Assembly: GCF_964204865.1 (NCBI RefSeq)
Contig: NC_135253.1
Location: forward strand, 15,376,001-15,440,000
DNA from: Styela clava
Lineage: Eukaryota
Length of the DNA: 64,000 nucleotides
Reading direction: 5' to 3'
Numbering within the stretch: the first letter of the stretch is position 1; each line of letters starts with the position of its first letter. Shown one piece after another: positions 6,274 to 51,900 of this stretch. Both the position numbers and the translations under genes were made by a program. The notes beneath the pieces were generated by a model. The model was given only the letters and a program-made list of their open reading frames with translations. It searched no databases and was not told where the DNA came from.

Positions 6274-6275
6274 CC

Positions 6276-24494: not shown

Positions 24495-25879
24495 GCCAGC
24501 ACAGATAACTTATACACCCGCTCTTCGCGTTGTCTGATGTCGTCTGCGTATCCTCGAATAGAGATTTAACGTTTAATACTGTTTTCTAATCATTTTCTAA
24601 TTAAAAGACCTCAAACTAGGGCGCATCTCTTGATTACTTTACTTGATTACTTTAATATCAACTAATGAATTCTGCTTATAACTGATAGAACATGCAGAAT
24701 CATTGTGTTACATAAACTGAATCCATTGAAATTCGGACTAAATGAAATGTGTAAGCAATTTACTACAACGCCATGCCTCGTTTTAAAAGTAGAATGTTAC
24801 AAAGATGGTTCCGTTAACGCCGGACGATCAGATTTGATTTGTTTGAAATTTTGGTGACGCTACAGTGTCTTGGTGAATATCTAGCTGCTAATCTAAATAT
24901 ACCAATAACATTCTGTTTGTTGGAGAAGAAGTTCGGTGGTACATTACAGACACTGCTGGCTATGCCCAGAAAACATGCAGCGTGTGATGACCCACGATTG
25001 CCCAAATTTATCAGCGCAAACATACGAAACCTTTCGTTGCGCTTTTCTGAATTTTGTCAAGGTTAAGAACATACAGAGTGGCTCCCATTATCAATAAAAA
25101 GCATTCTCTGCTATTCCGTCATTTGTTGTTTCCTGCTATCTTTATTCGCTTGGCGGACAGACTTGCATTGCGTAGTTTGGCATTTTTCATTTTACTGTAT
25201 GCGGATTTTCGAACTCCTGGGAGTCGGAATCGAAATTCTGATCCCTACGCTTGAAATGACCACAAAGTTGGCGGAGTATCACAAAAAATTATCACGTGAT
25301 CGACAGCTGATTCAGCATGAAAACGAAAACAATCGCCATTGTCTGATTGTGAATGCAGGGTTGTGCCATGTTATTCCGTTATTGCTGTTTTGTTACGCTT
25401 TACAGCTATTGCAGTATTGGGCTGTTTTGAATGAAAAATCTTCAATTTAGCCTAGTATTCCATAAGTCAGTTTTTATTTATTCATTTGAGTTATGATTTT
25501 GTTTTACGTTCGCCTTAGCAGTTGTTTAGAAATAATAATTTATATACCGGTAATAGTCTACATGTCTGCATGTAGATTTATAGCCTTATATGACATTCAG
25601 ACATTTGTGTATAGCCTAGTTAGGGTTACAGGGCTAGGATTGTACCAGAACCGAAGGTATGGGTATGGTATATGTTGCCACTGTGGTAAATAAATATTCA
25701 TAAATAAATCTTTAAAATTATTTTTAAACGACTCCTGAGGAAACTGAAAATTGAAGTCATACTGTCATAACTTGAACTCAAACTGATCAGAAAAGTCCAG
25801 AGGGCGAAAGCTGTAAACCGATCTGATATCCAGTATATCTTTCAAATTTATCTTAATTTCTGCACTTCACTTGATAAAC

Positions 25880-26089: not shown

Positions 26090-26268
26090 ACCAATCAACC
26101 AATTCATTTTGGTGGCTCTAGTATAAAACAAAATTAAAGTCTTTTTGTTTGGTACCGTAACCTGATAACTGACTACTGGACTATGTCAAATACTGAAATA
26201 AGAGCTTTCTCTTTCATGACTTAATTATATCATTCCATGATTTTCGAGTACTAATGTAGAACCTAAAT

Positions 26269-28845: not shown

Positions 28846-29257
28846 AGAATATATATATACCAACTTTATATTTTCATCTAAATGAGTAGTAAGGGTTAAA
28901 CTCCTAGGATTATAAATAAAGATATATCAATATGCTTTCGATCATTCAGCTGAAAATGATATTATTTCGACATCTTAATCTCAGTTCCTCTATCCAATAT
29001 GCAAATTCCAGGAATCTTGAATAATATAGTAAAAATAATACAAACATACAATTCAGTAAGAATCCCTTCTTCTGGGAAGTTTTCAACTAACTGTGTGCTT
29101 CAATTGAAAATTATTTTGGATATGAAAATGAATACCACTGTTATAGTTCAATTAACTTTGAATACCAATTTTGTGATTAAATAATTCTATCAATTTATTA
29201 TTATTAACATATTTGTTACTCCAATTTCTAGTGTAGAATTGTAATATTAAATTAATC

Positions 29258-30388
29258 ATGGGTCGTATCTTTCTCGAACATATTGGAGGTTCAAGATTGT
29301 TTGCATGTGCAAACTGTGATACATCATTGACAAATCGTGTGGAATTAATATCTATGAGATTTACTGGAGCTACTGGACGAGCATATTTGTTCAACAAGGT
29401 AATGCTGGTTAATAATGCTGGTTGCGAAATAAAGATCTGTACACAATTAAAGTAATTAGGATCCCAGTAATTACTATTTGATGCTTCGCTTGTTCAATTT
29501 CAAATATGGGTCTTAGATGAGATTCTCGTTCAGGCTGATTTCAGTCTCAATAAGGCTGATTTCAGTCTCAATATTACCGTTATTTTTACCAATAGTAACT
29601 AATTTTCTAATTACAGGTGGTAAACTTGACTTACAGTGAAGTTCAAGATAGAGTCATGTTGACGGGTCGTCATATGGTACGAGATGTTTGCTGTAGAAAT
29701 TGTAAGACTAAGCTGGGATGGATGTACGAGTATGCAACAGAAGAAGCACAGAGGTAAAGGATTGTTTTTTGTAATGAGAGTGTGCTAAAGGCAAGGTCAC
29801 ACACAATTAGAAGTGAAGGGATCTCATCTCTCCATAGCATTGCCGGAAGCTAAATCGAATTAATGGTGGTGTAAGAAAATACAAATTGATGTGAGGGTTG
29901 AAGTATTTCAAGTCAGTTCGTAGTGAATGAGGTAGAGAATTCCACATAACTATTGCTCTTGGAAAAACTTTTGGATCAAAAATTTCTTAGTCTTCATAGA
30001 ACATGGCTGTGTAGTCTTATACATACTCCAATGCCGATCTGATGAGTATTACCAATACATGACCACCTTCTTTTGTAAAATACTTGTTTAATACGTCTCA
30101 CACCAGTGTGCTTCATATTAATGATGACCAGTGTTGTAAAGAAGTAGTCAAACATTCTGACAGCTGTCTCCCTTTTTGATGTTTAAAATTGCACAAATAG
30201 AAATGTATATTTTCAGATACAAAGAGGGAAGAATAATATTGGAACGAGCTCTCATAATGGAAAGTGATGGATTTGAAGAAACACCAAAACCATCTGTACA
30301 TAGCATTAGAAAGAGAATGAATCAGGCAACTGTAACAACAAATTCATCAAACAGTGATGATGCTACAGGGGTATGGACCAGCGAGTAA
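29258..30388 (+). CDS. YPEL5: Protein yippee-like 5, copy A; exons 29258-29398, 29617-29753, 30217-30388; 149 aa
   Basis: [24 protein letters not shown]|[37 protein letters not shown]|[12 protein letters not shown]; GT-AG introns in phase. Confidence 0.95.
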
Positions 30389-31808
30389 CTGTTTTCGTAA
30401 CAAAACATAGTGAAACTGTTATTGTTGTTACGTGGGACATGTTGGACTGACTCGGTGAATGACAACGTATCGAAGTTTGCCAGAGGATGTTACTATCATA
30501 CACAAAAAATACTAGTGTTTGGCCTATGAATAATCAGGTACCAGGATATGCCAAGCCGCTGATGGGATTTTATCATTTATGTTTATATGTTCAAATTGAA
30601 ATTATGAAGAGAAGTTGATGCCAAACTAATAACTTGTTACAACATATGAATTACAGAAGTAGTTCTATTTTGTTTTCATGCTAACTTGTGATCAGATTAT
30701 GAGCATACTGCACCATTACGTCCGACCACATATAGAAATGTTACTGAGATCATGACATTTCTCTGTGAGGTATTCCCTCCCCATATCAATGTGGTAATCT
30801 AGTAACACATTATGATTACCTGGCAGCTGCTTGCCTACTTTGTGCAATAATTACTAATTAAAGAAGTTATTATTATCTTACATTTAATTTTTAAAGGTCT
30901 TTTTCACTTGCATGCATATAGACTAAGAACTATTGTTTTGTGTTTTTCTTCAATAAGGAAAAGGATATGGTCCTTTCAAAGTGATACTTTATCTATATAT
31001 TTCAGATCTATATTTATTCAATACATTATTACTTTTGATGTTCTATGATTGCGTATTCAAGCTATGGTTTAGGGTTAATATTAGCAAAGGCTGTGGTAGG
31101 CAATCAGTTCAGAGAGAACATCCACGACTGATTTTGTATGAGACAGGGTATATACCGTGTTTCTCCGAGATTCAATTTTCTTTCGAAAAATAAAACTAGG
31201 GCTTCTTTTTGGGGGATGTCTTTTATTTTCATTTATCAAAAACAAAATTACAAAGTAGAAAATCACAAGATATTCAAATATACAAAATATGGAACCGATA
31301 TCCATTTACTTATCAAATAACAATTTCTTTTTTTTAAAAACCAACTAGGGTCTATTTTAAGAGGGGGGGGGGGACATTTTTTTTTTCAAACAAGCTCCTA
31401 TTTTCGGGTAAACACGGCAGTAGCTGATGTGGTCAAACCTGAATATTTAATCACGGTATGATATTCATGATGACAATTATATATTCAAAATTTAGGGTCA
31501 TTTGTCAGTGGATCATAAATCATTGTATATTCTGGAATTTTCTTTTTTTTGTGCCCAAAACATTGTTTTGGTTGGTAATCTATTTTCTCGAGTTGCCTGG
31601 TCTTCCCTAATGGAACTAGTATAACTAATTAGGTAGTTGATTTGTTTTAGGATGATAAGTTGTCTGTTCCAAATATGTGAGAGTGGTGCTTTGGCTTTAA
31701 CTTCGGATTGTAAAGTCATAGTCAAGTTTATTTCTTCCATCTAGCAAAAATATCACGCTAAATTAAAGGACCGTGGAGAACCGAAGCTGGTTATTAAAGC
31801 AGCTACAC

Positions 31809-32523: not shown

Positions 32524-34627
32524 TTATTTCGTCAGGCCTGTAACATGACTGACATGGGGGGTTGAGAACCGAAAAGGTCGCCAATAACGCGTGCAATTGC
32601 CTTTTGCTGAAATTGATTGTTTTTGACATCGTGGCGTGTTATTTAGGTCGTAAACGTCTTTTACGTTGGTGCTTATTGTCTCTGAATCGCAAATTTTTCC
32701 ACAAATAACGATGATATTTATTTTATTTTTGTACTCGCACGGAATCGTGCATCTGGAGAATCTCCAACCTGGAACCGATGTTTGTTTCTTCCGTTTTCCT
32801 TTTATGTATTGCGTTTTGTTTTGATGGAATACAGTACATAATTCCAGGAGAGTGCCAATAACAACGAGAATTGTTAAGAATCCGAATATGCACCTGTTTA
32901 AATACATAAATCAGAATTTGAACTGCCCACGGAAGAATGCAAGGTTTGATTGAATCGCCGAACATATAGTGGAGATTTTACAGCAAACTGTTAAATTGTA
33001 CATTTTCGAATATAAAGTAAGTGGTAACGCTGAACATTAATTATTTTGTGAGTAATACTGTAATGAATTCAGTGCATAAAACTTTTTGGATATGTTGTCA
33101 CTATAGAATAATGATTATAGAACAATATGTATAACAAGATTATTAGGTAAACTATTTACAATATTTCCGTATTTAATTGTCATTTATTTTTTAAGTTTTT
33201 GGATAGTATTAAACTATACATTTGGTTATGTTTTTGCATGGTACATATTTGCTTACTCGACTGTTATTTTTTAATAAGCACAAGAACAAAGCACGCCAAT
33301 AACAATGCCAATGTCTAAATTAAATGAAAACGGTTATCATTATACCGACTCACATAGTCACGTAAAACCCATAACCATGCTCTTCGTCTTCTTCACATTG
33401 TGAGATGGAGTAAAGGGAGACATGTTTCGTAGAGTTTGTTTCAAAATGATCTAAAGGCAATTTATAAAATATAATATATATATATATTGAAGTGTGAGCG
33501 AGAGAGAGTAGACTATACGGCATATTTAGTACCTCCCAGTTCATTTTCCGGCATCTGAGTGAATTTGTGCCATATGTATTCCAGCATAGCTTGAAGCATG
33601 GATGAATTATGTCAAAGATTAGCATAAAAACATCCAATTAGTGTAACAAATATAATTATGTTTACAGGTTATTGTGATTTTAATCGCATTTACAATAGTT
33701 AGTATATATGTGCTAATTATACAAATATAATATATACAGGCTGTCTCAAACTAGTATCATATATAATAACCTTGAAATATAATCATTGCATAATTCGAAA
33801 CATCATTTTCGTGGCAATGCACAGGAATGCTCTGATATTTTGTCGCAATAACGCTATAATTTTTTGTCCAATCTATCTCACGAGAGATTAGATATCGTCT
33901 CTCAGGCTGTAGCAATCGTAGTCGACAATATCTTGTGCCCGATACCTTGCATTTTCGATAGATATCTACAATGGAGTTTGTGGGTGAGGTGTCAGCTGCA
34001 AAATATTTACACTTTACACACAAAGTTTACAGGCAATCTAATGTGCGCTAGTTATGATTGTTATTATGCTTACTTTGCTTTCCTTCGTGAACCAATACAT
34101 TTAACATTGATCACACTCACTCAAAATTTTCACATCATGAGTTTTGGAACAAGAAGTATACCTGTAGTTCCCAGTCGGTTGGTAAATACGTCGAACTAGC
34201 CCAGAAAACTTGTAGGACGACATGGTATGGATCAGGTGGAATCTTACGAAGATTACAAAAATATCCTAAACATTACACATATATAATAGAAGCGCAGATG
34301 TTATGGCGATAGGCGGCAGAACTTTTTAAAGTCTGCTGTTTTGTATCATCCTGATGGCTCGCGTAACGACCGTTTTTACTGTTAGGATTATCAATTAATT
34401 TATCATTATAAAGGATACTAACCAGATAATGCAGTTGTTGTAGCGTTTGTCTCAACCATTTCCGGGTTCGTCTTACAGACTGCCGTGATAAGGTTTTCGT
34501 CGGGGTTCACTGGGACATTTTGACGGCGATTTACGCCTTCATTAATAGACATTAATATTTGAGGAGTCAGTGCATTCACGCTCGACAAAGCAGTACAAAG
34601 AGTGATGTACAGTATCAATATATTCAT
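32524..34627 (-). CDS. Truncated duplicate of the NRF-6-like gene (exons 1-4 only, new C-terminus, ~298 aa); possibly a pseudogene
   Basis: Exons 1-3 and the 5' half of exon 4 match copy A. Homology stops at 32760 and the frame runs on into junction sequence to a stop at 32524. Confidence 0.6.
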
Positions 34628-35537
34628 GATCCTTACTATTTCAAGGAAAACAAGAGCTCGCTACTGATGAACTGTAAGACGGCACTGCTTTATAAACAAC
34701 GGACAGTATATGAGAAAAATACGAATTTTTAAAGGTTGCTTGCAACAACACATTCGGAACAACTAATCATTTGAAATATACCGTACTACCACATCAGCTG
34801 GCGAGAAAACGCACTAGTCTAACCCTAACTGAATAAATCTAACGATCCTTGGCAAGCACAAATAACTTATACGCCCGCTTCTTCGCGTTGTCTGATGTCG
34901 TCTGCGTATCCTCGAATAGAGATTTAACGTTTAATTCTGTTTTCTAATCATTTTCTAATTAAAAGACCTCAAACTAGGGCGCATCTCTTGATTACTTTAC
35001 TTGATTACTTTAATATCAACTAATGAATTCTGCTTATAACTGATAGAAAATGCAGAATCATTGTGTTACATAAACTGAATCCATTGAAATTCGGACTAAA
35101 TGAAATGTGTAAGCAATTTACTACAACGCCATGCCTCGTTTTAAAAGCAGAATGTTACAAAGATGGTTCCGTTAACGCCGGACGATCAGATGATATTTGA
35201 AGAAAAAGATTTGATTTGCTTGAAATTTTGGTGACGCTACAGTAGTGTCTTGGTGAATATCTAGCTGCTAATCTAAATATACCAATAACATTCTGTTTGT
35301 TGGAGAAGAAGTTCGGTGGTACATTACAGACACTGCTGGCTATGCCCAGAAAACATGCAGCGTGTGATGACCCACGATTGCCCAAATTTATCAGCACAAA
35401 CATACGGGACCTTTCGTTGCGCTTTTTGAATTTTGTCAAGGTTAAGAACATACAGATTGGCTCCCATTATCAATAAAAAGCATTCTCTGCTATTCCGTCA
35501 TTTGTTGTTTCCTGCTATCTTTATTCGCTTGGCGGAC

Positions 35538-38500
35538 CAATGACATTAAACAACATGATAGGCAACTCTGACGTCACTCCATAAGACTGCAGGCGAAAGA
35601 TTATATTTCATGATACGCTCCAATGCACGTATTTCTCGTCGCCTTTCGCGACCGTTTCTCGCTCGCTTTTGCTACTCGGCGTCTTCTTTGGGTGTAGTAC
35701 CTGCCTTTTTGCGCCTGTAACGAAAAATATAATCACTATATCTAAGAAGTTTTGCTCACTTGGTAAGCTGGAATAGCAGACAAGCTGTAGAGAGTAATTC
35801 TGGACATCATAGACGTTTTTATTATCAGAGAAGATTACAAACGCGATAGCGTAAAGATTTGAGTGGAACATTTTGCAGATAATGACAAAGTTCAAAGTTA
35901 GTAATTCTAATGTTTGCGCTTAAACATTGAAATTTCATTTTAAGAGGGTGTCATACAAAACAGCAAAACTGTTTTCACTTCTCCTAACGGTGCTGTGATA
36001 CAATTCCATAAAACAAAGTTTGCACCTATCGAACTTGCTTTAGTAGGTGAATTTATTAGACATATTACATATTCAGTTAATCGTAGGTAACATTGCTGGT
36101 ATATAATGCCTCGTAGATAGGTTTGTGTCTATATTTAGAAATTTAGCTCATAGCCCACTAATTAATATTATCTTCTGTGCAGGAGGTTGCAGGACTGAAA
36201 CTTAACTTGCAGCCTTACCGATCAGCTGACGATGCTCATTTAGTTTGGCTCCAGCAAGTCTTCATGAAAGACTTGTGTGAATGGAAACTACCCATATGTT
36301 TTTCTTTCCTCCGATTTTAGAAGACAAATTTATTCTGAGGGATTTCGCATATAATTCTCATTGATTGTTAGCTGTTTATAACTCCTATTAATTGTGAATT
36401 CTGATTATAACAAAGAGTTAAAAAATTTTTTACGTAATTCACTGGCACCTTTTTCTTGTCAATACTCCAAGCTGAGGTAATAAACAAGACAATACATTTT
36501 TTTCATCTGGGAGCAAAATATGCACACTAATTACAAGTTTGACACATTGAGATAATACATCATGACAGAAAATACAAGTTAAAGATATGTATGACCATCA
36601 CATGGTAATTAAAATTAAAAAAAATTATTAGGGGCTGTGGAGTATGAGAAGGTTCAAGACAAAGAAAAGAACAAAAATTCATATCTCATGAACTCTCAAT
36701 TTTGCCTTCATTGCTTTGTGAACGCCAATATATTTCGAGTGGCTGAATTAGTTTATCTTTATGATAGCAAAGATTTTGTATTTAATATAGCGAGATTTTT
36801 TTTCAATTTAATTGAAGTGATATTATTTCCCAAAGCAATGCTTGAATCGTCTAGAATCTACTCTAGATGGATCAGTGGTGTCAAACTCATGGGTTTTCGA
36901 GAGCCGTATTGCATTTTGGAAATTGTAGAAAGGGCCGCAAACAGTTTTTGATAATGTATACTTGAAAGATATTTTTAAGATAGTTTTAGTTTGTGACATA
37001 AATTGTGATGCAACTAAACAGTTGGATTAAGTTTTATAATTTTCTTCAATTACAAATGCAATTACATATTAATATTTGCATTCCACTATTATTGCAAGTT
37101 ACTGTATTTATTACAAAAAATCATAAAATTCTATGTACAACCATCAAAATCATTTTTGAACAAGCTTTGGATAAGGAAAGAATAATACATACACTAAAAA
37201 TGACTAAATGTAAATATATGGACCTAAAACTAACAAAAATACTACAGTATAAACTCAATCTTTTTTTTAATTACATTTGTCCTGACGTTTGGCATCTTTT
37301 TTTGTCACCAGCATACTAGGGCCAGGCTGAAATGATTTTATAGTATCAACTCTAACAAACGAGGTCACATGATCATGGGTTAATCTGGATCTTTGCGAAT
37401 GTTTAATTAATTCCAGTAATGCAAAAAAGTTACTTTTATCATTTCATGTATAGATCAGTAAAATAACAAATGACAGATTTTTTCGACAAGACATTTCGCG
37501 CCACATTGCGTGGCATAGGGTTGCTTGAATTATTATTGATATTGATTTTTAGTAACTAAGTCGTTGTATAATTATATTAATATACCAACACATGGAAATT
37601 TTCTGTTCGAAGTTGCTCTTCGAATTTGTCATATTGACTGCTGAGCTTATTGTGTTTTTTCATTGTACTGATGGAAATATGACAAAATAAACAATATCTC
37701 CAGAATTTTGCGAAATTCAGAAATATTGCAACTCCCAATTTCTTCGAAAATGCCACCTTCTTCTTGTACTTTGCGTTTAATTTAATCACTCAAGTGTTTT
37801 ATTCAAGTATTCTTTTGCTAGCCTGATGTGTATTCCTAATTAGGGCAAAATGTGAACAAAAAAAAATAATTTTTCAAAACTAATTTCAGTAATTTGTTTC
37901 CTGTGTGAATAATCAATTTCACTTTAAAAGGTTTGAAAAATCTATTACATTTAGATAAAAAAAAAACTTCCAAAATACTATTACAATTATTTTTAATCGT
38001 TCGAGGGCCGCACTGGAAGGTCTCTGGGGCCGCGAGTTTCACATCAAATGTCTTTGCATGCCTCCATTGGTTGTTCTTCTATTGCAAACATTTATGGAGT
38101 ACTCTAACTATTTTTGCTATTGCCTCTTGTGCTGCAGGAGTCTCACAATGCTTACCCAGGTTTGTCCACAACTTTCACATCTGAAGAAAGAGAGAAGATT
38201 TATTAATTTTCGTTAGGAATAAATAAATAATGTCTATATGATTTAGAATGGAAAAGCTAATAAATCCAATATCTCATGTTTTATGTAAAAAATGTTTTAC
38301 TGAATTTGGTATATAAACCAACTAATAAAGGGGTTTAGTCAGAAAATTACAAGCATTCGTGGCTCCAAATACTTGAGAGATCAGACTATACAATATAGAC
38401 CGGTATGAGTGAAATGTTAGGTGAACTTGTTAACCTTTTGATTCAATACGCAAATAAAAGTGAATGAGCAATAGTATTTTACAGCAATGAGTATATATCC

Positions 38501-38918
38501 TCACTGATTAAAAAAAATCTAAATGGAGGTGCATGAACTATTTGAAACCATAAAGGTTAGGTAAACATGCAATTTCGGCAAATGGGCAACTATGTATCGT
38601 GCTGAATTAATAACTTCGTAGTATTTGACAAAAGCTGGCTTTTCCAGATGTACTTAACAGTGCGATGCCCGGGTGTGATATACAACAATAGTATTCACCT
38701 TACCTTTTTCCGATTTCTTTTTACCTCAACTTTCCAAAATATCATTAAAATCGACAACAACTGTCAAAGCAGGCACGAACACCATTCGTGCTATGCCTTG
38801 AAAACAGCACACATCCGCTCGTTTTCGTCTCGTCAAGTATGTGCATTGGAGCGTGCTATTGGATACGATCTTCGGCCAAAAATGCCGGAGTTGCGCCTCA
38901 TGTTGTTTAATGTCATTG
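35538..38918 (+). mobile_element. Non-autonomous P-superfamily-like DNA transposon, left member of an inverted pair
   Basis: TIRs CAATGACATTAAACAACATGA / TCATGTTGTTTAATGTCATTG, flanked by ggcggac on both sides (35531-35537, 38919-38925). Confidence 0.8.
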
Positions 38919-38925
38919 GGCGGAC

Positions 38926-41900
38926 CAATGACATTAAACAACATGATGCGCAACTCCGGCATTTTTGTCCGAAGATCGTATTCGATAGCACGCTCCAATG
39001 CACATACTTGACGAGACGAAAACGAGCGGATGTGTGCTGCTTTCAAGGCGTAGCACGAATGGTGTTCGTGCCTGCTTTGACAGTTGTTGTCGATTTTAAT
39101 GATATTTTTGAAAGTTGGGGTAAAAAGAAATCGGTAAAAGGTAAGGTGAATACTATTGTTGTATATCACACCCGGGCATCGCACTGTTGGGTACATGTGG
39201 GAAAGCCAGCCTTTGTCAAATACTACGAAGTTATTAATTCAGTACGGTACGTAGTTGCCCATTTGCCGAAATTACATATTTACTTACCCGTTATGGTTTC
39301 AAATAGTTCATGCACCTCCAGTTAGATTTTTTTAATCAGTGAGGATATATACTCATTGTTGATTGCTGCTCATTGTAACATACTATTACGCATTCACTTT
39401 TATTTGCGTATTGAATCAAAGTGTTAACAAGTTCACCTAACATTTCACTCATACCGGTCTATATTGTATAGTCTGATTTCTCAAGTATTTGGAGCCACGA
39501 ATGCTTGTAATTTTCTGACTAAACCCTTTTATTAGTTGGTTTATATACCAAATTCAGTAAAATATTTTTTAAATAAAACATGAGATATTGGATTTATTAG
39601 CTTTTCCATTCTGAATCATATAGACTGCTTTATTTATTCTTAACGAAAATTAATAAATCTCCTCTCTTTCTTCAGATGTGAAAGTTGTGGACAAACCTGT
39701 CTAAGCATTGTGAGACTCTTGCAGCACAAGAGGCAATAGCAGAAATAGTAAGTATATCAATCAAGAAATAAGCCGACATAAGCAAAACTTTCAACTATTC
39801 AACTTTCAACTATAGCAGACGGGGAGATATCAGAAGTCTGGCGACATATCAGTGACAGTGTGATTCCAAGAAATATAATGCAATTGAAAATAGAAATATG
39901 CAATAGAAAAACAACCTATGGAGGCATGCAAAGACATTTGACCCTCCGGTAGAGTTGTGTATGGCCCCCACATCCTGCAGGGCTTGAGGAAAATAACTAA
40001 AAATTCCAAAGCGTAAGATTGCTTAAGCGGTCTTATTTGTAAAAAGGCACAAAACACGCCAGACATACTTAAAACAGCTTTAGAAATGAGGATTACGGGT
40101 ACCTCACTGCACCTGTGTTATATTTGGTTCATCAGCTTTTGATAGTACTATAGAAGAAATTCCGGAAGGGGTATAATCATCATTCATGATAAAATACTAT
40201 CATATATTTTTTGAACAACTTCAATCTAGACCAGGGATCTCAAACTCGCGGCCCCAGAGAACTTCCAGTGCGGTCCTCGATTAACAATAATTGTAATAGT
40301 ATTTTGGAAGTTTTTTTTTTTTTTTATCTAAATGTAATAGATTTTTCAAACCTTCTAAAGTGAAATTGATTATTCACACAGAAAACAATTTACTGAAAGT
40401 AGTTTTGGAATATTGATTTTTTTTGTCCACATTTTGGCCCAATTAAGAATACACATCAAGCTAGCAAAAGAATACTTGAATAAAACACTTGAGTAATTAA
40501 ATTAAACGCAAAGTACATGAAGAAGGTGGCATTTTCGAAGAAAATGGGAGTTGTAACATTTCTGCTCTTCACAAAATTCTGAAGCACATTGTTTATTTTG
40601 TCATATTTCCATCAATACAATCAAAAAACACAATAAGCTCAGCAGTCAATATGACAAATTCGAAGACCAACTTCGAACAGAAAATTTCCATGTGTTTGTA
40701 TATTAATATAATTATACAACGACTTAGTTACTAAAAATCAATATCAATAATAAATCAAGCAATCCTATGCCACGCAATGTAGTGCGAAATGTCTTGTCGA
40801 AAAAATCTGTCATTTGTTTTTTTACTGATCTATACATGAAATGATAAAAGTAACTTTTTTGCATTACTGGAATTAACTAAACATTCGTAAAGATCCAGAT
40901 AAACCCATGATCATGTGGCCTCGTTAGTTAGAGTTGGTACTATAAAATCATTTCAGATTGGCCTTAGTATGCTGGTGACACAAAAAAGATGCCAAACGCC
41001 AGGACAAATGTAATTATTAAAACATTGAGTTTATACTGTAGTATTTTTGTTAATTTTAGGTTCATATATTTAGATTAAGTTATTTTTAGTGTATGTATTA
41101 TTCTTTCCTTATTCAAAGCTTGTTCAAAAATGATTTTGATGGTTGTACATAGAATTTTACGATTTTTTATAATAAATACTGTAACTTGCAAATGTTGCAA
41201 TAATAGTGGAATGCAAATATTAATATGTAATTGCATTTGAAATTGAAGAAAATAATAAAACTTAATCCAACTGTTTAGTTGCATCACAATATATGTCACA
41301 AACTAAAACTATCTTAAAAATATCTTTTAAGTATACATTATCAAAAACTGTTTGCGGCTCTTTTTACAATTTTCAAAATGCAATGCGGCTCTCGAAAACC
41401 CATGAGTTTGACACCACTGATCTATTCTAGACAATTCAAGCATTGCTTTGGGAGATTATATCACTTCAATTAAATTGAAAACATCTCGCTATATTAAATA
41501 CAAAATCGTTGCTATCATGAAGGTAAACCAATTCAGCCACTCGAAATATATTGGCCTTCACAAAGCAATGGAGGCAAAATTGAGAGTTCATGAGCTATGA
41601 ACATTCGTCTTTTTCTTTGTCTTGAACTTTCCATACTCCACAGCCCCTATTAATTTTTTTTAATTTTAATTACCATGTGATGGTCATACATATGTTTAAC
41701 TTGTATTTTCTGTCATGATGTATTATCTCAATGTGCCAAACTATTAATTAGTGTGCATATTTTGCTTCCAGATGACATAAAAGTATTGTCATGTTTATTA
41801 CCTCAGCTTGGAGTATTGACAAGAAAAAGGTGCCAGTAAATTAGGTAAAAAAATTTTCAACTCATTGTTATAATCAGAATTCACAATCAATAGGAATTAT

Positions 41901-42700
41901 AAACAGCCAACAATCAGTGAGAATTATATGCGAAATTCCTCAGAATAAATTTGTCTAAAATCGGAGGAAGGCAAAAAATATAGGTAGTTTCCATCCACAC
42001 AAGCATTTCAAGGAGACTTGCTCGAGCCAAACTAAATGAGCATCGTCAGGTGATCGGTAAGGCTGCAAGTTGAATTCAGCCCTGCAACCTCCTGCATAGA
42101 AGATAATATTAATTAGTGGGCTAAATTCCTAAATTTAAACAAACCTCTATGATGCATTATGTACCAGCAATGTTACCTACGATTAACTGAATATGTAATA
42201 TGTCTAATAAATTCACCTACAAAAGCAAGTTCGATAGGTGCAAACTTTGTGTTATGGAATTGTATCGCAGCACAGTTTTGTATGACACCCTCTTTAAATG
42301 AAATTTCAATGATTAAGCGCAAACATTAAAATTACTAACTTTGAACTTTGTCATTATCTGCAAAATGTTCCACACAAATCTTTCCGCTATCGCGTTTGTA
42401 ATCTTCTCTGATAAAAAAAAACGTCTATGATGTCCAGAATTGCTCTTTACAGCTTGCCTGTTATTCCAGCTTTTCAAGTAAGCAAAACTTCTTAGATATA
42501 GAGATTATTTTGTTTCGTTACAGGCGCAAAAAGACAGGTACTACACGTAAAAAAGACGCCGAGTAGCAAAAGCGAGCGGAAAACGGACACGAAAGGCGAC
42601 GAGAAATATGTGCATTGGAGCGTATCATGAAATACAATGTTTTGCCTGTAGTCTTATGGAGTGACGTCAGAGTTGCCTATCATGTTGTTTAATGTCATTG
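38926..42700 (-). mobile_element. Non-autonomous P-superfamily-like DNA transposon, right member (inverted)
   Basis: Same TIRs, flanked by ggcggac (38919-38925, 42701-42707). THAP-like relic REDYKRDSGKICVEHFADND on the minus strand at ~42345-42409. Confidence 0.8.
40232..41419. mobile_element. hAT MITE nested inside the P-like element (counterpart at 36873-~38038 has lost one end)
   Basis: TIRs cagggatctcaaactc / gagtttgacaccactg. Confidence 0.7.
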
Positions 42701-43488
42701 GGCGGACAGACTTGCATTGCGTAGTTTGGCATTTTTCATTTTACTGTATGCGGATTTTCGAACTCCTGGGAGTCGGAATCGAATTTCTGATCCCTACGCT
42801 TGAAATAACCACAAAGTTGGCGGAGTATCACAAAAAAATGACGATAGGGTTCTTTTTATTATCAAGGAAATAATGAAAATGACGTGGGATCAAATTATCA
42901 CGTGATCGACAGCTGATTCAGCATGAAAACGAAAACAATCGCCATTGTCTGATTGTGAATGCAAGGTTGTGCCATGTTATTCCGTTATTGCTGTTTTGTT
43001 ACGCTTTACAGCTATTGCAGTATTGGGCTGTTTTGAATGAAAAATCTTCAATTTAGCCTAGTATTCCATAAGTCAGTTTTTATTTATTCATTTGAGTTAT
43101 GATTTTGTTTTACGTTCGCCTTACTGCCTTAACAGTTGTTTAGAAATAATCATTTATATACAGTATATAATAGTCTACATGTCTGCATGTAGATTTATAG
43201 CCTTATAAGACATTTGTGTATAGCCTAGTTAGGGTTACAGGGCTAGGATTGTACCAGAACCGAAGGTATGGGTATATGTTGCTACTGTGGTAAATAAATA
43301 TTCATAAATAAATCTTTAAAATTATTTTTAAACGACTCCCGAGGAAACTGAAAATTGAAGTCATACTGTCATAACTTGAACTCAAACTGATCAGAAAAGT
43401 CCAGAGGGCGAAAGCTGTAAACCGATCTGATATCCAGTACGGTATATCTTTCAAATCTATCTTAATTTCTGCACTTTACTTGATAAAC

Positions 43489-43698
43489 GCGGGCGTAGCG
43501 GTGGTGCTCATCGTGCTAAGCATTAGCAATACGCTCGTCACCGCATCTGTAATTACTGAATTACTCTGCGTGGGTTCGAATCCCATGAGAGGATGGTTAT
43601 GTGCGAGAAGATTGCTGGACTCCTCGCCGCCGTAGGGTGGTTCACATAACCGCTGGTTGGTACTCTCCCCCGGGATAAATATGTGTATCCTATCCTAA
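43489..43698 (+). mobile_element. tRNA-derived SINE (duplicate of 25880-26089)
   Basis: Near-identical to the copy A SINE, including the B box gggttcgaatccc. Confidence 0.7.
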
Positions 43699-43921
43699 AC
43701 CAATCAACCAATTCATTTTGGTGGCTCTAGTATAAAACAAAATTAAAGTCTTTTTGTTTGGTACCGTGACCTGATAACTGACTACTGGACTATGTCAAAT
43801 ACTGAAATAAGAGCTACTTTGCTATTAACACATACATATGATATATTTATTGTGACTAGTTCTCTTTCATGACCTAATTATATCATTCCATGATTTTCGA
43901 GTACTACTGTAGAACCTAAAT

Positions 43922-46498
43922 TTGTCTTCTATGACGATGAGTTCCTATTGTGTGAGAAGATGTCTTGTAGTAAGGTCTTCAAAGGATTTAATTTATACGT
44001 CAAGATTTTCAATGTCATCTTATAAAATCAGAAAAAAGTTCATTGATTTTTTTCATAAACAACACAACCATGAGTTCATTTCTTCATCATCGGTCAAACT
44101 TCTCAGCGATCCCTCATTACTCTTTGTCAATGCCGGAATGAACCAGTTCAAGCCAAAAATATTAGACACTATTGATCCAAATGACAAAATGTCTTCATTA
44201 AGACGAGCTGTTAACAGTCAAAAATGTATACGTGCAGGAGGGAAGCACAATGATTTGCAAGATGTTGGTAAGGACACATCACATCACACATTTTTTGAAA
44301 TGTTGGGTTCATGGTCTTTTGGAGATTACTTTAAAAAAAAAGCTTGCGAGATGGCACTTGAATTGTTGACTGAACAATTTAAATTACCCCTAGATAGATT
44401 GTATTTTACCTATTTTGGAGGGGATGATTTACAAAAACTAGACACTGATACGAGTACAAGAGATGTGTGGAAATCTCTTGGAGTACCCAGTAAGAACATT
44501 TTACCATTTGGATTTAAAGATAATTTCTGGGAAATGGGAGATAAAGGGCCATGTGGGCCTTGTACAGAGATTCATTATGATTATGCCGGAAACGGGCGAG
44601 ATTTGGTAAATGCTGGTCATTCAGACGTTGTTGAAATATGGAATTTAGTATTTATGCAATACAATAGAATTTCAAATGGAGATCTGGTATATTTACCAAC
44701 AAATCATGTTGATACAGGAATGGGATTGGAACGAATTACTGCAATTTTGCAGAATAAGAAATCAAATTATGATACAGATTTATTTCTACCTATTTTGAAC
44801 CAAATTGGAGAAATTTGCAATTGTCCAAAATATCAAGGTACAAATACTCCTATAGACGAAGCATACAGGATTGTTAGTGACCATATACGTATGCTAGTAA
44901 TTGCAATATCTGATCATGTTTATCCCGGGAATGCAGGGGCTGAGTTAATCTTGAGGAGAGTGTTACGTCGAGCTTACCTCAAATCAAAACAAATATTACA
45001 TGCTCCTGATGGACTTTTATGTGAATTAGTTCCAATTGTAGTAGGTTCCTTATCGTCACATTATCTGTACATGAAAGATCGTCAAATTGACGTAATAAGA
45101 ATAATTCGCAACGAAGAAGATAGTTTCATTAATGTTCTAAAAAAGGGTGGAAAAATATTCAATAAAGCTATAAAGAATATTAGTAAGGAAAAAAATTTTC
45201 CAATGGAAACTGCTATTCTACTGTATAATCATTATGGATATCCCATTGAATTAATAATAAATAATCTTAACGAGAAAGATATTGTTTTGGACATTGATGA
45301 ATTCAATAGATATCAAGAAGGCCGAGAAGAGTTGAAACAATCAGGAAGAGAAATCGAGAATAAACAAATGAAACAAAATATTGAAATTACATCAAATATT
45401 ATCAATGATATGAGGTCGAAAAATATTCCTGCCACAGATGCACAACCAAAATATATTACTGTAAGAAATAATGATACTAGGTCATATAATTTTCCATCAT
45501 TATCTTCAAAATTGTTATGTGTTATTTCAAGCGAAGGCAAATTATTGGACACTGTCGAACCTGGTCTCCACTGTGCTCTTGTTTTTGATAAAAGTTCTTT
45601 CTATTATACTGATGGTGGACAAGTTGCAGACAAGGGATCAGTGGATGTTGATAACACAGAAGCCTTCAGTATATTGGATGTCAATTACGCTGGAGGGTAC
45701 ATATTTCATCATGGATACATTTCTAGAGAATGTATGAGTCTAAAAGTTGGGGATGAGGTTAAATTATCGCTAAATCCAGCAAGAAGACGGGCATGCATGC
45801 GGGCTCACACTGCAACTCATATTATTAACCATGCATGGAGAGAAATTATCGGATCTGATATTATTCAACAAGGATCGAAAGTAGATGAAGATAGCTTTCG
45901 ATTAACTTTGAATGGACCCACACCAACAAGCTCTCAACTCAATAAAATCTTACAAGTAGTTCGCACTCAAATTTTATCAGATGGTAATGTGGTTGCCAGT
46001 AACATTGCTTTGAATGATGCTCTTGATGATGGTAACATCCGAAGACTAACAGACAATATATATTCTGATCCAGCTAGAATTATTTCTATTGGTAAATGTT
46101 CTCAAAATAACCATTCTGTTGAATTATGTGGTGGCACACATGTTCAAAAAACTGGAGATATTGGGCAGTTTGTTATACTATCTTGCAAAAGCCAGGGATT
46201 AAATAGAACAACTGTTAAATGTTTAACAGGAAGGCCAGCTGAGGACTCAGAATCATGCCTGAAAGATGTCCAGACAAGAGTTTGTAAACAAGTTGATGAA
46301 AGCAAAAAATTATTGTCTGAAAATGATATCTCTGTTACGACGTACAAAGAAATAAAAAAACAAATTGGACAATTGAATCATGAAGTTATTAGTGCTGATA
46401 TTTCAACAATTTGCAAATCTGATATGCAGGCGAAGTTGCGTCATCAGTCACAACAATTATCCACAAAAATCAAAAGAATCAGCCTAAAATCTAGTTAA
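43922..46498 (+). CDS. AARS2: Alanyl-tRNA synthetase, mitochondrial, copy B
   Basis: 858-codon intact ORF with 15 amino-acid differences from copy A; all catalytic and editing motifs retained. Confidence 0.92.
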   Translation: MSSMTMSSYCVRRCLVVRSSKDLIYTSRFSMSSYKIRKKFIDFFHKQHNHEFISSSSVKLLSDPSLLFVNAGMNQFKPKILDTIDPNDKMSSLRRAVNSQKCIRAGGKHNDLQDVGKDTSHHTFFEMLGSWSFGDYFKKKACEMALELLTEQFKLPLDRLYFTYFGGDDLQKLDTDTSTRDVWKSLGVPSKNILPFGFKDNFWEMGDKGPCGPCTEIHYDYAGNGRDLVNAGHSDVVEIWNLVFMQYNRISNGDLVYLPTNHVDTGMGLERITAILQNKKSNYDTDLFLPILNQIGEICNCPKYQGTNTPIDEAYRIVSDHIRMLVIAISDHVYPGNAGAELILRRVLRRAYLKSKQILHAPDGLLCELVPIVVGSLSSHYLYMKDRQIDVIRIIRNEEDSFINVLKKGGKIFNKAIKNISKEKNFPMETAILLYNHYGYPIELIINNLNEKDIVLDIDEFNRYQEGREELKQSGREIENKQMKQNIEITSNIINDMRSKNIPATDAQPKYITVRNNDTRSYNFPSLSSKLLCVISSEGKLLDTVEPGLHCALVFDKSSFYYTDGGQVADKGSVDVDNTEAFSILDVNYAGGYIFHHGYISRECMSLKVGDEVKLSLNPARRRACMRAHTATHIINHAWREIIGSDIIQQGSKVDEDSFRLTLNGPTPTSSQLNKILQVVRTQILSDGNVVASNIALNDALDDGNIRRLTDNIYSDPARIISIGKCSQNNHSVELCGGTHVQKTGDIGQFVILSCKSQGLNRTTVKCLTGRPAEDSESCLKDVQTRVCKQVDESKKLLSENDISVTTYKEIKKQIGQLNHEVISADISTICKSDMQAKLRHQSQQLSTKIKRISLKSS

Positions 46499-46905
46499 AG
46501 AATATATATATACCAACTTTATATTTTTATATATAATATTTTGATCCAAATGAGTAGTAAGGGTTAAACTTCTAGGATTATAAAATATATCAATATGCTT
46601 TTGATCATTTAGATAAAGTGGTATTGTTTTGACATTTTTTCTCAGTTCCTCTATCCAATATGCAAATTCAAGGCATATCGAATATTATAGTACAAATAAT
46701 ACAAACATAATATTCAGCAAGAATCCCTGCTTTTGAGAAGTTTTCAACTAACTGTGAGGCTGCGTTTAGCTTTGATTGGAAATTATTTTGGATATGAAAA
46801 TGAATAGGTCTACCAAATTTGTCATTAAATTATTCAAACAATTTTTTATTATTAACATGTTTGTTACTTCAATTTTTAGTGTAGAATTGTAATATTTAAT
46901 TAATC

Positions 46906-48044
46906 ATGGGTCGTATCTTTCTCGAACATATTGGAGGTTCAAGATTGTTTGCATGTGCAACCTGTGATACATCATTGACAAATCGTGTGGAATTAATATC
47001 TACGAGATTCACTGGAGCTACTGGACGAGCATTTTTGTTCAGCAAGGTAATGCTGGTTAATAATGCTGGTTGCGAAATAAAGATCTGTACACAATTAAAG
47101 TAATTAGGATCCCAGTAATTACTATTTGATGCTTCGCTTGTTCAATTTCAAATATGGGTCTTAGATGAGATACTCGTTCAGGCTGATTTCAGTCTCAATA
47201 AGGCTGATTTCAGTCTCAATATTACCGTAATTTTTACCAATAGTAGCTAATTTTCTAATTACAGGTGGTAAACTTGACTTACAGTGAAGTTCAAGATAGA
47301 GTCATGTTGACGGGTCGTCATATGGTACGAGATGTTTGCTGTAGAAATTGTAAGACTAAGCTGGGATGGATGTATGAGTATGCAACAGAAGAAGCACAGA
47401 GGTAAAGGATTGCTTTTTGTAATGAAAGTGTGCTAGGAGCATGGTCACACACACTCATAAGTGAAGGGATCTCATCTCTTAGTAAACAACTATGACATTG
47501 CCTGGAGCTAAATCGAGATAATGGTGGTGTAAGAAAATACAAATTGATGTGAGGGTTGAAGTATTTTAAGCCAGTTCGTGATGAGGTAGCGATTTCCACA
47601 TAACTATTGCTCTTGGTAAAACTTTTGAAATAAAAATTTCTTAGACTTCATAGAACATGGCTGTGTAGTTTTATACATACTCCAATGCCGATCTGATGAG
47701 TATTACCAATACATGACCACCTTCTTTCATAAAATACTTGTTTAATACGTCTCACACCAGTGTGCTTCATATTCATGATGACCAGTGTTGTAAAGAAGTA
47801 GTCAAACATTCTGACAGCTGTCTCCCTTTTTGATGTTTAGAAAATTGCACAAATAGAAATGTATATTTTCAGATACAAAGAGGGAAGAATAATATTGGAA
47901 CGAGCTCTCATAATGGAAAGTGATGGATTTGACGAAACACCAAAACCATCTGTACATAGCATTAGAAAGAGAATGAATCAGGCAACTGTAACAACAAATT
48001 CATCAAACAGTGATGATGCTACAGGGGCATGGACCAGCGAGTAA
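46906..48044 (+). CDS. YPEL5: Protein yippee-like 5, copy B; exons 46906-47046, 47265-47401, 47873-48044
   Basis: Same exon sizes (141/137/172 nt) and splice sites as copy A; 6 amino-acid differences. Confidence 0.95.
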
Positions 48045-48962
48045 CTGTTTTTGTAACAAAACATAGTGAAACTGTTATTGTTGTTACATGGGACATGTTG
48101 GACTGACTCGGTGAATGACAACGTATCAAAGTTTGCCAGAGGATGTTACTATCATACACAAAAAATACTAGTGTTTGGCCTATGAATAATCAGGTACCAG
48201 GATATGCCAAGCCGCTGATGGGATTTTATCATTTATGTTTATATGTTCAAATTGAAATTATGAAGAGAAGTTGATGCCAAACTAATAACTTGTTACAACA
48301 TATGAATTACAGAAGTAGTTCTATTTTGTTTTCATGCTAACTTGTGATCAGATTATGGGCATACTGCACCATTACTACCGACCACATATAGAAGTGTTAC
48401 TGAGATCATGTTGAAATGTTATTACATTTCTCTGTGAGGTATTCCCTCCCCATATCAATGTGGTAATCTGGTAACACATTATGATAACCTGGCAGCTGCT
48501 TGCCTACTTTGTTCAAAAATTACTAATTAAAGAAGTTATTATTATCTTACATTTAATTTTTAAAGGTCTTTTTCACTTGCATACAGACTGAGAACTATTG
48601 TTTTTTTTTTTTTTTTTGAATTTCGATAAGGAAAAGGATATGGTCATTTTAAAGCTTTCAGGAATCATGGCAGCTGAATTAACTTTCACTTCTAGTCAAA
48701 ATTTTTGACATGTGATACTTTATCTATATATTTCAGATCTATATTTATTCAATACATTATTACTTTTGACATTCTATGATTGTGTTTTTAAGCTATGGTT
48801 AGGGTTAGTGTGAATATTAGCAAAGGGTGTGGTAGGCAATCAGAGAGGAAACCAATTTTGCATGAGACGGTATATAATATCTGATGTGGCCAACACTGAA
48901 TATTACATTCTGAAAAAATTGGGATATTGAATACCCGTATATTCAAAATTTAGGGTCATTTG

Positions 48963-51900
48963 CAGTGGCGGCGCGTGGTCATTTTAACAACCGGGGCAAG
49001 CTACTGCGGGACCAAGTCACCCCCATCTACGGGGACAGGATGAGCGCTGTAAGTTCTCCCATCATTTTATGAGTATAAAAACCATTCCATCGGCAAAAGC
49101 GACAATTTTTAACGATAAGAAAGTGTCTTTAAAACCGGTCCAAGTCAAGGGATTAATAAATATATACATAGTTTATTTTGAAACCTCTTTCAAAAGGAAA
49201 GGCAATATTTACCCAGATAAATACAATGACATATTAACAGAAACTTCGGGAAAGCAGACAAAACCTAAAATAAGGTTTAAAACGTTACTATGAAGAAAGG
49301 AAAGTTAATGCAAAGATAAGGACATGCGTCGCTCACTCATAGATATATATGCTGCTAGACTTCTACTGCTTGAACATATATGCAACACGCCGCGGTTTCT
49401 TGGAAGCAAAATGCTCAATAACGCGCTGATTAAAGTCATGCATCCCAGAAATAACGTCTCTGTGAATGGATAAAACAGCCAAGGAATTTAATCTGTCTTG
49501 CTTCATTGTGTTTCTGAGATACGTTTTAATACGCTTCAGCGTGCTGAATGTTCGCTCTGCGTCGGCAAAAGAAATAGGCGTCGTCAAAATGATGTCCAGA
49601 AATTTTGCAGACGCCGCAAAGGTAGTTACTAGAGTGTTATCTATGAGGAACCCATAGAGCGCGCAAGTTGATGTGATGTTCAAAAAAGTTTGATTGGTGT
49701 ATATACATCGCAATTCATTTTCCAATTTACCCACGTTCATCATGGGGTAAAATTTGGAGATAGTAGCCAACAAATGGATGGGAAAATGACGTGCAAATTT
49801 TGAAAAATTTTTGGGGTTCATCAAAGAGAACGCGGCAAGGTGTTCACTGCGCAGACGATAGCCTATTTGATTCACCAGAATGTCACAGCATTCCTTTGCA
49901 GACAAAATCAAACGCTGCGTTGTTTACCCGCGGCGTAGAGAAGCACTCCATGTGTCGTCGTATTTTATTGTTTCCCTGATACGAGATACAGCATCGCAGA
50001 AGTCTGAAATACACGACTGCACAGACGCTCCATCCATTAGCCTTGACTGCAATGCGCCGTATAATACATCCACGTGATAGAATATTGTGGAGAAAAAATG
50101 AAAACTCACCATCTTCTAGCAGACGCTTTAGACCTGCCGCCTCCCTCACAGAGCGTTCGTCCCAAACCGGAGAGCTCTGAATGCCATTGAAACACTCAAT
50201 GAGCTCAGACCTAATTTCGGACACGCCCTGCACCACGCGTGATTGGAAGTTCCAACGTGTTGGTGCACAAGCTGGGAGACGGCGGCTACATATCTGGCGA
50301 AGGAAGTCAGAGCGCTTCGGCGAAACGGAAAAAAATGAAGAAAACCCCGAAACATTTGCAAAAAATATACGGACGAGAGGGGTATCAAGACACATATTTT
50401 TAATAACGAGGTTAAATTGGTGTGCATAACAATGTAAAAAATGCGCATGAGGAAAATCTTCTTTTATATAAACTTGAACACCATGTTTCGACCCACTCAT
50501 GACTGCCGCGCCGTCATAAGTTTGAGCTATCAATTTTGACTTCGCGTTGTAAGGCTGTAACACTTCTTTCAGTACAGCCGATATCCCGCAAGCCGTGCGA
50601 TCAACGATTGGTACAAAGCTGTGAAATCTCTCGGTAGGTTTACCATCTTTCACAAACCGAAAAATCACAGCCAGTTGGGAAACGCACGTGATGTCAGTTG
50701 TCTCGTCAGACTGAATCGAAAGGAACTGGCAATTCTCAATTTCCAGAGCCAAATGTTGTAAATAAATTTTATACATTGAGTCGAGCAAATCATTTTGGAT
50801 ATCCTTAGATGTCCCTTTCGAAACAGTTGCGGCACCAAGATGATCTCTCAATACTGTATCTAGCGATGCGGTGTATTCCACCATATCCAAAAATACCCCT
50901 CTATTAGAAGAGCCAGCCCGTTCATCGTGCCCACGGAGGGACAGCTCGTGACAACCAATGAACTTCAAAACATCTATCAATCGACCGCGAACATGGCGGT
51001 TTTCCTCGACGTTTTGGTTGTGCCTACGAATAGAAACCGCGCGTCCTTCATCCAACTGTGCTGCAATATTAACATTTCCGAATGTTCGGTATTTTACTGC
51101 ATTGTCCAGATGCTCTATAGAAGATTGATGATCCCTGGCACGCTTGGAAAGATGTTTAAGATCTCTAAAACCAAATTTACACCAACGTGAGTCACGGGCG
51201 GTAACAAAAAGTAGGCAATAAAAACAAAAAAGTGCATTTTTGTCCTCGCTGTAACACATCCATTCGTGTTTTTTATACCAAGTTTCTGCGCAGAATGTAC
51301 GCCGACGCTTTTCTCCGTCATTGGATTGTTCCCGTGAACAATTTTTTGGTTGATAAGGCCCAAGACGTTGTACCACTAATTTTTGTTCCAGCGGCAGCTG
51401 CGAAAACGGAGTGCGAAGTAGTGCATCAACCTTATTCATTATGAGGTCTAAGGCTAAGAAATGCGAAGCCGGAAAGAGGTGAGAAGCTCAAAAGGAATGT
51501 GGAAAATCGAAAGCAAATGGACCGAAGGTCTCTAACTGATTCAAATAGCGAAACAAGCGACAAAAACGAAGGCGAGGAAACTATCAACTCTTCAAGCAAC
51601 CAACAAACGAGAAGGAATGCGTGAATATGTCAACACGTTGTTGTAGGAAACGTCGGCATTGTGGCGTCATAATTTCGGGGCTAGCCCCGATCGGCCCCGA
51701 TGATTTAGTAAAAGAAACAGAAAACAAACGTGGCGAGTGGAAGATAAAAGAGAGAATACGATATACAATGAGCAACCGGGGCAAAATCGCCGTCGCCCCG
51801 TCGACGTTCGGCGAAGGCTTTGCGAGCGAAAAATGAACCATGTCGGGAGAATATGGCTAGTGTAGACAGTCTGTGCAACCGATATTGAGGTATTTTTCGA

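What the first reader, a model, noticed from the sequence alone, without database searches (positions are those of the whole stretch)
35531..42707. 7.2-kb palindrome formed by two P-like transposons inserted in opposite orientation at one target site (TSD present three times)
Seen: ggcggac-[element 1]-ggcggac-[element 2, inverted]-ggcggac, while copy A has a single ggcggac (25152-25158), the empty site. Each element has its own 21-bp TIRs with CA...TG ends, and a THAP-like relic (KICVEHF) survives in element 2 (Cys changed to stop in element 1). The two differ by many substitutions and indels, so one is not a fresh local copy of the other. Known: 7-8-bp TSDs, CA termini and THAP mark the P superfamily (Galileo makes 7-bp TSDs), and inverted double P insertions such as Drosophila singed-weak are hypermutable. 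Inference: strong re-targeting of an occupied site or element end; the structure could form cruciforms or dsRNA just upstream of AARS2. A 5-bp TSD reading (gcgga) is also formally possible.
Basis: partly seen in the sequence, partly recalled or inferred. Interest (0 to 1): 0.7.

Follow-up and report, generated by a model that had tools for sequence, protein, structure and literature searches.

The report
Back-to-back P transposons, two-gene lineage
Two different copies of a jumping gene sit back to back in one 7-base target, a known by-product of P-type transposons that recurs at 12 places in this sea-squirt genome, and the copies are broken relatives of an element whose cutting enzyme is likely built from two separate genes.

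Summary
GGCGGAC flanks and separates element 1 (3,381 bp) and inverted element 2 (3,775 bp); the arms are 93.5% identical. Both belong to a family of about 550 non-autonomous copies with 21-bp ends and 7-bp TSDs (99 of 109 elements); the 5-bp reading fails. They are not sister copies (AU p=1e-45). The genome has 13 element-element junctions at 12 loci, in all orientations, and 5 element-plus-footprint junctions. Re-hit sites are strong targets, and the element's end recreates the preferred flank. This is the known P double-insertion mechanism. Special targeting of occupied ends, fragility and dsRNA are untested, and the reads were inconclusive.

The extra result is the family's coding relative, a 10.15-kb P element. 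Its transposase stops 67 residues after the catalytic Glu motif. A separate convergent gene is predicted to fold like the Drosophila transposase C-terminal domain (Z 10.7). This layout occurs in 25 of 34 informative metagenome loci. This scan had noted the two-gene layout before on other DNA, including this genome. I did not find it in the papers searched; Repbase could not be checked.

The parts
35531..35537 (+). Left copy of the 7-bp target site GGCGGAC
35538..38918 (+). Element 1: non-autonomous P-family copy, older lineage, 21-bp TIRs at 35538-35558 and 38898-38918, lacking 296-bp and 129-bp blocks found in most copies
   Evidence: nearest full copies 96%, one truncated sister (L054) 97.7-98.1%
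38919..38925 (+). Central target copy, spacer of the tail-to-tail (3'-3') junction
38926..42700 (-). Element 2: non-autonomous copy of the young subfamily, TIRs at 38926-38946 and 42680-42700
   Evidence: nearest copy L081 99.5%
42701..42707 (+). Right copy of the target site
25152..25158 (+). Empty target site, with no footprint, in the duplicated segment (copy A)
35776..35898 (+). THAP exon relic in E1 (Cys codon changed to stop)
   Evidence: tblastn with the master THAP exon, 68% over 41 aa, E 2e-12
42338..42496 (-). THAP exon relic in E2 (KICVEHF), not an open gene
   Evidence: tblastn 49% over 53 aa, E 2e-10
36192..36296 (+). Relic of the transposase catalytic core in E1
   Evidence: tblastn 63% over 35 aa
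41979..42086 (-). Relic of the transposase catalytic core in E2
   Evidence: tblastn 64% over 36 aa
39788..40240 (+). Relic of gene 2 (CTD-like exon), opposite strand to the transposase, in E2; largely deleted in E1
   Evidence: tblastn 44-51%, E 3e-16 and 2e-7
39059..39140 (+). Relic of gene 2 first exon near the element's right end (MVFVPALTVVVDF vs master MEPVPALTVVVDF)
   Evidence: read by eye
43913..46498 (+). Intact alanyl-tRNA synthetase ORF (copy B), about 1.2 kb from E2; copy A at 26260-28845 is also intact. The mitochondrial (AARS2) label was not tested

Best explanation
The palindrome is two separately derived, non-autonomous P-superfamily copies that share one 7-bp target written three times, most likely because a second insertion re-used the target copy at the 3' end of the first.

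Shown: 7-bp TSDs; unrelated partners; 13 such junctions in all orientations; stronger-than-average targets at re-hit sites; element ends that match the preferred flank (T-Y-R|GTYNRAC|Y-R-A); and footprints beside surviving partners at five other loci.

Inferred: E1 came first and E2 later; strand choice is random; arrays resolve by excision of one partner; and the mobilising enzyme is the transposase of the related two-gene P element, whose missing C-terminal domain is likely supplied in trans by the convergent second gene.
For: TSD 7 bp in 99 of 109 elements, 8 bp in 3, none in 7. A strict pattern allowing a 0-11-bp spacer gave 12 junctions, all 7 bp. A looser pattern gave 19 hits against a control of 2: 13 element-element, 5 element-footprint, 1 unrelated. 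Orientations: 4 tail-tail, 3 head-head, 6 head-tail (7 of 13 inverted, p=1). In 8 of 12 loci all target copies are identical and locus-specific. E2 is 99.5% like L081, and each partner ranks 62nd of 97 for the other. Sister status is rejected, deltaL 467, p-AU 1e-45. No conversion tract: 2 of 36 E2-private sites equal E1. Empty-site score 9.5 bits (8 arrays) vs 4.9 (78 singles), p=2.6e-5; the window's site scores 7.8. TTG ranks 3rd of 64 flank trimers. 17 of 19 footprints examined have an exact 7-bp TSD and keep at most 19 nt of an end. Master element: TIR 19 of 21 identical to the family's, PF21787/21788/21789, and THAP at E 4e-4 under the cut-off. The gene-2 model matches 6p5a_B at Z 10.7, rmsd 2.7, 112 of 118 residues, next hit Z 6.6. 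The mechanism is published for Drosophila P (PMC2577343, 10.1101/158386; passages).
Against: No contig spans the centre in the five contig runs laid. Only 2 Hi-C reads reach about 20 nt past it, and they could come from another double. The motif-only model expects 0.2-0.7 doubles against 13 seen, so a further factor is needed. The element end restores but does not clearly improve a site: mean bits rise 4.9 to 5.4 while the analytic mean weight falls 335 to 271. Four of 12 loci are not clean TSD arrays (L045, L047, L048, L052). The master is only 67-86% identical to the family, in blocks, so it is a relative and not the direct parent; it was the only intact copy found. Foldseek gave the CTD match only E 0.09, though as top hit. 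8 of 34 informative metagenome loci lack a detectable second gene.
Confidence: 0.9

Rival explanations
1. Resident element ends actively attract the transpososome (end tethering), so occupied sites are re-targeted beyond sequence and chromatin preference.
For: 13 junctions seen vs 0.2-0.7 expected from the 15-bp motif. One insertion lies 92 bp inside another copy's 3' end (L045) and two copies lie 179 bp apart (L056).
Against: Re-hit sites were already top-scoring before insertion. One nucleotide of an interspersed repeat is re-hit at several loci by different subfamilies. An accessible genome fraction of 1-6% would close the gap.
Confidence: 0.25
2. E2 is a local inverted copy of E1 (local hop or fold-back duplication) that later diverged.
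For: Local hopping is known for P (PMC7776569 passage); the arms are homologous end to end.
Against: The arms differ more (6.5%) than the flanking duplicate that holds the empty site (2.5%). E2 has 98-99.5% relatives on many contigs. The AU test rejects sisters.
Confidence: 0.02
3. The 7.2 kb is one foldback (Galileo-like) element with long arms that moves as a unit.
For: 7-bp TSD with a GT...AC consensus like Galileo's GTANTAC (PMC4168063 passage); both outer ends are 5' ends.
Against: The centre carries this locus's own target and occurs once in the genome. Most copies are single elements of about 3.8 kb. Other arrays have their own central 7-mers.
Confidence: 0.01
4. Assembly artefact (chimeric fold-back).
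For: No contig across the centre in five runs.
Against: The arms are different family members with 217 substitutions and 21 gaps. The target is present three times in direct orientation, and 12 other junctions follow the same rule. Those runs may be other animals in which the site is empty.
Confidence: 0.03
5. Context only: copy A is the other, uncollapsed haplotype rather than a tandem duplicate, so the double insertion is heterozygous.
For: A and B are 97.5% identical; both alanyl-tRNA synthetase ORFs are intact with 26 nucleotide differences; the centre is absent from public contigs.
Against: Both copies lie in one 25-Mb contig with different sequence between the shared blocks; read depth was not tested.
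Confidence: 0.3

Closest known systems
Drosophila P-element double insertions: singed-weak and tandem dimers (PMC2577343 and bioRxiv 10.1101/158386; passages read)
   Same: Two elements separated by one target copy; re-hit sites match the target motif better than single sites; the last bases of the TIR restore the motif; one partner can be lost by excision.
   Different: 7-bp rather than 8-bp target. Partners come from diverged subfamilies. Inverted arrays are not depleted here (7 of 13), whereas fly strains carried mostly head-to-tail tandems (55 of 85 strains vs 8 of 85 head-to-head; the authors allow for technical bias).
Galileo (P superfamily; PMC4168063 passages)
   Same: 7-bp TSD, sometimes 8; GT...AC consensus; 15-bp palindromic target motif.
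   Different: TIRs are 21 bp, not hundreds to thousands of bases; the long arms here are whole elements.
D. melanogaster P transposase / THAP9 (PDB 6p5a; PMC7776569 passages)
   Same: The master encodes THAP, RNase H and GTP-binding insertion domains; footprints keep long TIR remnants, as expected from a 17-nt staggered cut.
   Different: The C-terminal domain is not in the transposase; a CTD-like protein with a C2H2 finger is encoded by a separate convergent gene.

Membership tests
P superfamily | Transposase with THAP, split RNase H and GTP-binding insertion | tested here: met
   Master element: PF21787 E 5e-20, PF21788 6e-13, PF21789 5e-6, THAP E 4e-4 (under cut-off); relics in E1 and E2. 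The 55-aa relic from L060 alone hit no Pfam family.
P superfamily | Short TIRs with CA...TG ends | tested here: met
   21-bp TIRs
P superfamily | 7- or 8-bp TSD within a longer palindromic target motif | tested here: met
   99 of 109 elements 7 bp, 3 of 109 8 bp; 15-bp motif from 80 unique sites
P superfamily | Long staggered cut leaving TIR remnants at the donor site | tested here: met
   Indirect: 83 fused-end sites (control 0; 15 of the 50 listed are one multicopy form). In 19 examined the longest remnant is 19 nt. No site with two full 21-bp ends, whose 6 hits are at chance level (control 10).
P superfamily | GTP-dependent transposition | not testable with these tools
   needs biochemistry
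One-piece P transposase (D. melanogaster/THAP9 type) | C-terminal domain in the same polypeptide | tested here: not met
   Stop 67 aa after the Glu motif; the CTD-like fold is in the opposite-strand gene
Same-site double insertion (singed-weak type) | Target copy at the junction and at both outer ends | tested here: met
   Window and 7 other loci of 12
Same-site double insertion (singed-weak type) | Partners are independent insertions | tested here: met
Same-site double insertion (singed-weak type) | Hypermutability at this locus | not testable with these tools
   Only indirect: 5 element-plus-footprint junctions elsewhere
Galileo / Foldback | Long TIRs belonging to one mobile unit | tested here: not met
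   21-bp TIRs; the centre is locus-specific
Kolobok (THAP-bearing; TTAA target recalled, not from a call) | 4-bp TTAA TSD | tested here: not met

The most novel reading that the evidence does not exclude
A widespread animal lineage of P transposons uses a two-subunit transposase: a catalytic chain without the C-terminal domain, plus a separately encoded CTD protein. This family shows that the split enzyme keeps P-type chemistry in vivo (7-bp TSD, long-remnant footprints, target restoration, same-site re-insertion) and was recently active. The intact element at G000:C18 is a ready test system.
Probability: 0.6. Interest if true: 0.65.

Novelty: new variant of a known kind. Interest (0 to 1): 0.42.

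Why it matters
The palindrome itself is a known outcome of P biology and scores low alone. It does extend the Drosophila target-restoration and hot-site rules to a 7-bp family in a tunicate, with double, triple and resolved states in one genome. The higher value lies in the lineage. In the Drosophila structure the CTD contacts transposon and target DNA (PMC7776569 passage). A natural family that keeps P-type footprints while encoding this domain separately would allow its role to be tested by adding or omitting one gene. It would also add P to the transposon groups that use two proteins.

Tried and rejected
5-bp TSD: rejected.

Intact one-piece P transposases (L063-L069, L109-L111) as the partner: no DNA similarity to E1/E2 for L063-L074, and different ends.

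One search's constrained tree listed only 4 taxa and was trivially met; it was redone with all 24. The 24 were chosen by me from the 98 complete copies, and the 98 are enriched for relatives of E1 and E2.

One search's four 17+17 hits are one multicopy variant with changed ends (L191-L194) and were not counted as footprints. L195 was also left out of the 19. Nine of the 19 footprints were hand-picked.

L310 (8-bp spacer) is unrelated. Seven fetched loci held no complete element.

Reads: no verdict on the centre; no RNA holder was listed, so expression and small RNAs are untested.

Pfam gave nothing for the gene-2 CTD-like exon.

Termini were found for 1 of 3 other two-gene families searched here (L167, 7-bp TSD). 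Of 12 metagenome loci searched, 2 had TIRs with a 7-bp TSD (L267, L292).

Five paper searches (listings only) showed no description of a two-gene P element. A classification review I recalled was not held. Repbase and Dfam entries and supplements were not seen and may already record the layout.
Full report
Observation. GGCGGAC stands at 35531, 38919 and 42701, and once at 25152 in the duplicated segment. E1 (35538-38918) and inverted E2 (38926-42700) each have 21-bp CA...TG ends. They align at 93.5% with 21 gaps, while the duplicated flanks are 97.5% alike. The junction is 3'-to-3'. The perfect stem from the centre is 21 bp and the longest perfect run in the arms is 59 bp. The window lies in a 377-Mb genome; a protein 98% identical to one encoded by the master element is labelled Styela clava by its source.

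Family. The end has 471+461 exact matches and a DNA search gave 548 candidates, so there are roughly 550 copies, median 3.8 kb. TSDs are 7 bp in 99 of 109 elements, 8 bp in 3 and absent in 7; the 5-bp reading fails. Eighty unique single sites give a palindromic motif, gTYR|GTYNRAC|YRAc. This resembles the 7-bp, 15-bp-motif target of Galileo (PMC4168063, passages). The element's last three bases rank 3rd of 64 as a flank, as reported for Drosophila P (PMC2577343, passages). The end restores the site but does not clearly improve it.

Independent origin. E2 belongs to a young subfamily, with dozens of 98-99% copies and a nearest copy at 99.5%. E1's nearest full copies are 96%, with one truncated sister at about 98%. 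Each partner ranks 62nd of 97 for the other. Sister status is rejected on 24 selected copies (p-AU 1e-45), and there is no conversion tract. E1 first and E2 later is inferred from these distances.

Not a single case. A pattern allowing 0-11 bp between two ends found 12 junctions, all 7 bp. A looser one found 19 against a control of 2: 13 element-element junctions at 12 loci including a triple, 5 element-footprint junctions, and 1 unrelated hit. Seven of 13 are inverted. In 8 of 12 loci every target copy is identical and locus-specific; the other four are rearranged, differ at the centre, or lack a found outer end. About 25 of some 550 copies sit in arrays. Their original sites score 9.5 bits (n=8) against 4.9 for singles (n=78), p=2.6e-5, matching the hot-site result for fly P dimers (10.1101/158386, passages). 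A motif-only model still expects just 0.2-0.7 doubles. Open chromatin, base dependencies or end tethering must make up the rest, and I cannot separate them.

Excision. 83 sites show two fused end remnants (15 of the 50 listed are one multicopy form). Of 19 examined, 17 have an exact 7-bp TSD and 2 have one mismatch; remnants reach at most 19 nt. This fits the 17-nt staggered cut of P (PMC7776569, passage) and suggests that arrays resolve by losing a partner, as singed-weak does (passage). In yeast, 94%-identical inverted Alus 12 bp apart cause about 15-fold fewer rearrangements than identical ones, but still more than background (PMC10164571, passage). Some fragility here is therefore plausible but untested. 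Public reads gave no verdict on the centre.

The coding relative. Among P-transposase hits, G000:C18:4775463-4785616 (L185/L169) is a 10,154-bp element with nearly the same ends. It is itself in an inverted double with the target written three times. It carries a multi-exon gene with THAP, RNase H and GTP-binding domains; E1 and E2 keep relics of its THAP exon and core. The gene stops 67 residues after the catalytic-Glu motif. A second spliced gene (short first exon, C2H2 finger, 290-aa open frame) faces it; its relic is in E2. That frame matches the tail of a one-piece P transposase of this genome (E 4e-7). Its model (pLDDT 87) best matches the Drosophila CTD among 48,161 chains (Z 10.7, rmsd 2.7, 112 of 118 residues; next hit 6.6), and weakly by Foldseek (E 0.09, top hit).

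Distribution of the two-gene layout. Of 101 longer homologues of the core, 93 had the Glu motif. 75 end within 110 residues of it and none of these has a CTD match; 10 of the 18 long-tailed ones do. Named short-tailed hits include Hydra, sponges, molluscs, an echinoderm, a hemichordate, a priapulid and thrips. A profile of gene 2 finds 633 representatives; the 150 listed are almost all under 450 aa, some probably fragments. In 80 metagenome loci, 34 have at least 1.2 kb downstream: 25 hold a convergent CTD-like ORF, none holds one on the same strand, 1 holds it upstream and 8 show none (some loci are near-duplicates). Two are complete elements with CA...TG ends and 7-bp TSDs. Other families in this genome share the layout. 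That the two proteins act together is inferred from linkage, homology and fold; binding was not modelled.

Prior notes and literature. I reached the two-gene reading before the look-up. The scan had noted it in at least four genomes, and in this one; those notes are not used as support. Five paper searches (listings only) showed no description, but Repbase and most subscription journals were out of reach. All papers cited were seen as passages only.

Verdict. The structure is real and explained by known P behaviour (confidence 0.9). Interest 0.42 rests mostly on the two-gene lineage and on this family's in-genome evidence that it keeps P-type chemistry.

Noticed in passing
L048 (G000:C8:13934490-13944480), 614-8545: Head-to-head double whose central 7-mer is the reverse complement of the two outer TSDs, with a left flank from a different repeat; possibly inversion between the arms or a hybrid-end rearrangement.
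   Followed up: partly
L048, L049/L050, L298, L299; also L051/L094/L100 and L087/L101: Single nucleotides inside interspersed repeats are hit repeatedly by different subfamilies, in one case in opposite orientations; one such site carries a triple, a double and two element-plus-footprint arrays.
   Followed up: partly
L307 (G000:C9:13776112): Footprint with master-type ends next to a non-autonomous copy: a master-type element apparently left a former double.
   Followed up: partly
G000 C1, C3, C5, C6, C9: One 32-bp footprint-like form with the same filler recurs at 15 of 50 listed sites, probably amplified inside another repeat.
   Followed up: no
L045 (G000:C2:3745965-3755955), 1090-8774: A copy inserted 92 bp inside another copy's 3' end, with that end duplicated.
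   Followed up: no
L109-L111, L063-L069: A separate, apparently intact one-piece P family (ORFs of 822-834 aa, 5.4-kb elements, imperfect CAC ends).
   Followed up: partly
window 20823-30981 vs 32760-48654: Tandem duplicate (97.5% identical over the aligned 6.4 kb) with two intact alanyl-tRNA synthetase ORFs (10 synonymous, 15 non-synonymous codon changes); true duplicate or uncollapsed haplotype is unresolved.
   Followed up: partly
window 38606-39325 (+): A 239-codon stop-free frame crosses the palindrome centre, made of E1's 3' end and the start of E2's gene-2 relic; probably incidental.
   Followed up: no
window 49363-51487 (-) and 58401-59438 (-): A DUF4371-containing transposase (hAT-like, by recall) in two frames, and an LTR-retrotransposon pol fragment.
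   Followed up: partly
P0074: A 1,054-aa sponge-set protein related to the short-tailed clade carries a CTD match at its end; possible natural fusion or gene-model artefact.
   Followed up: no
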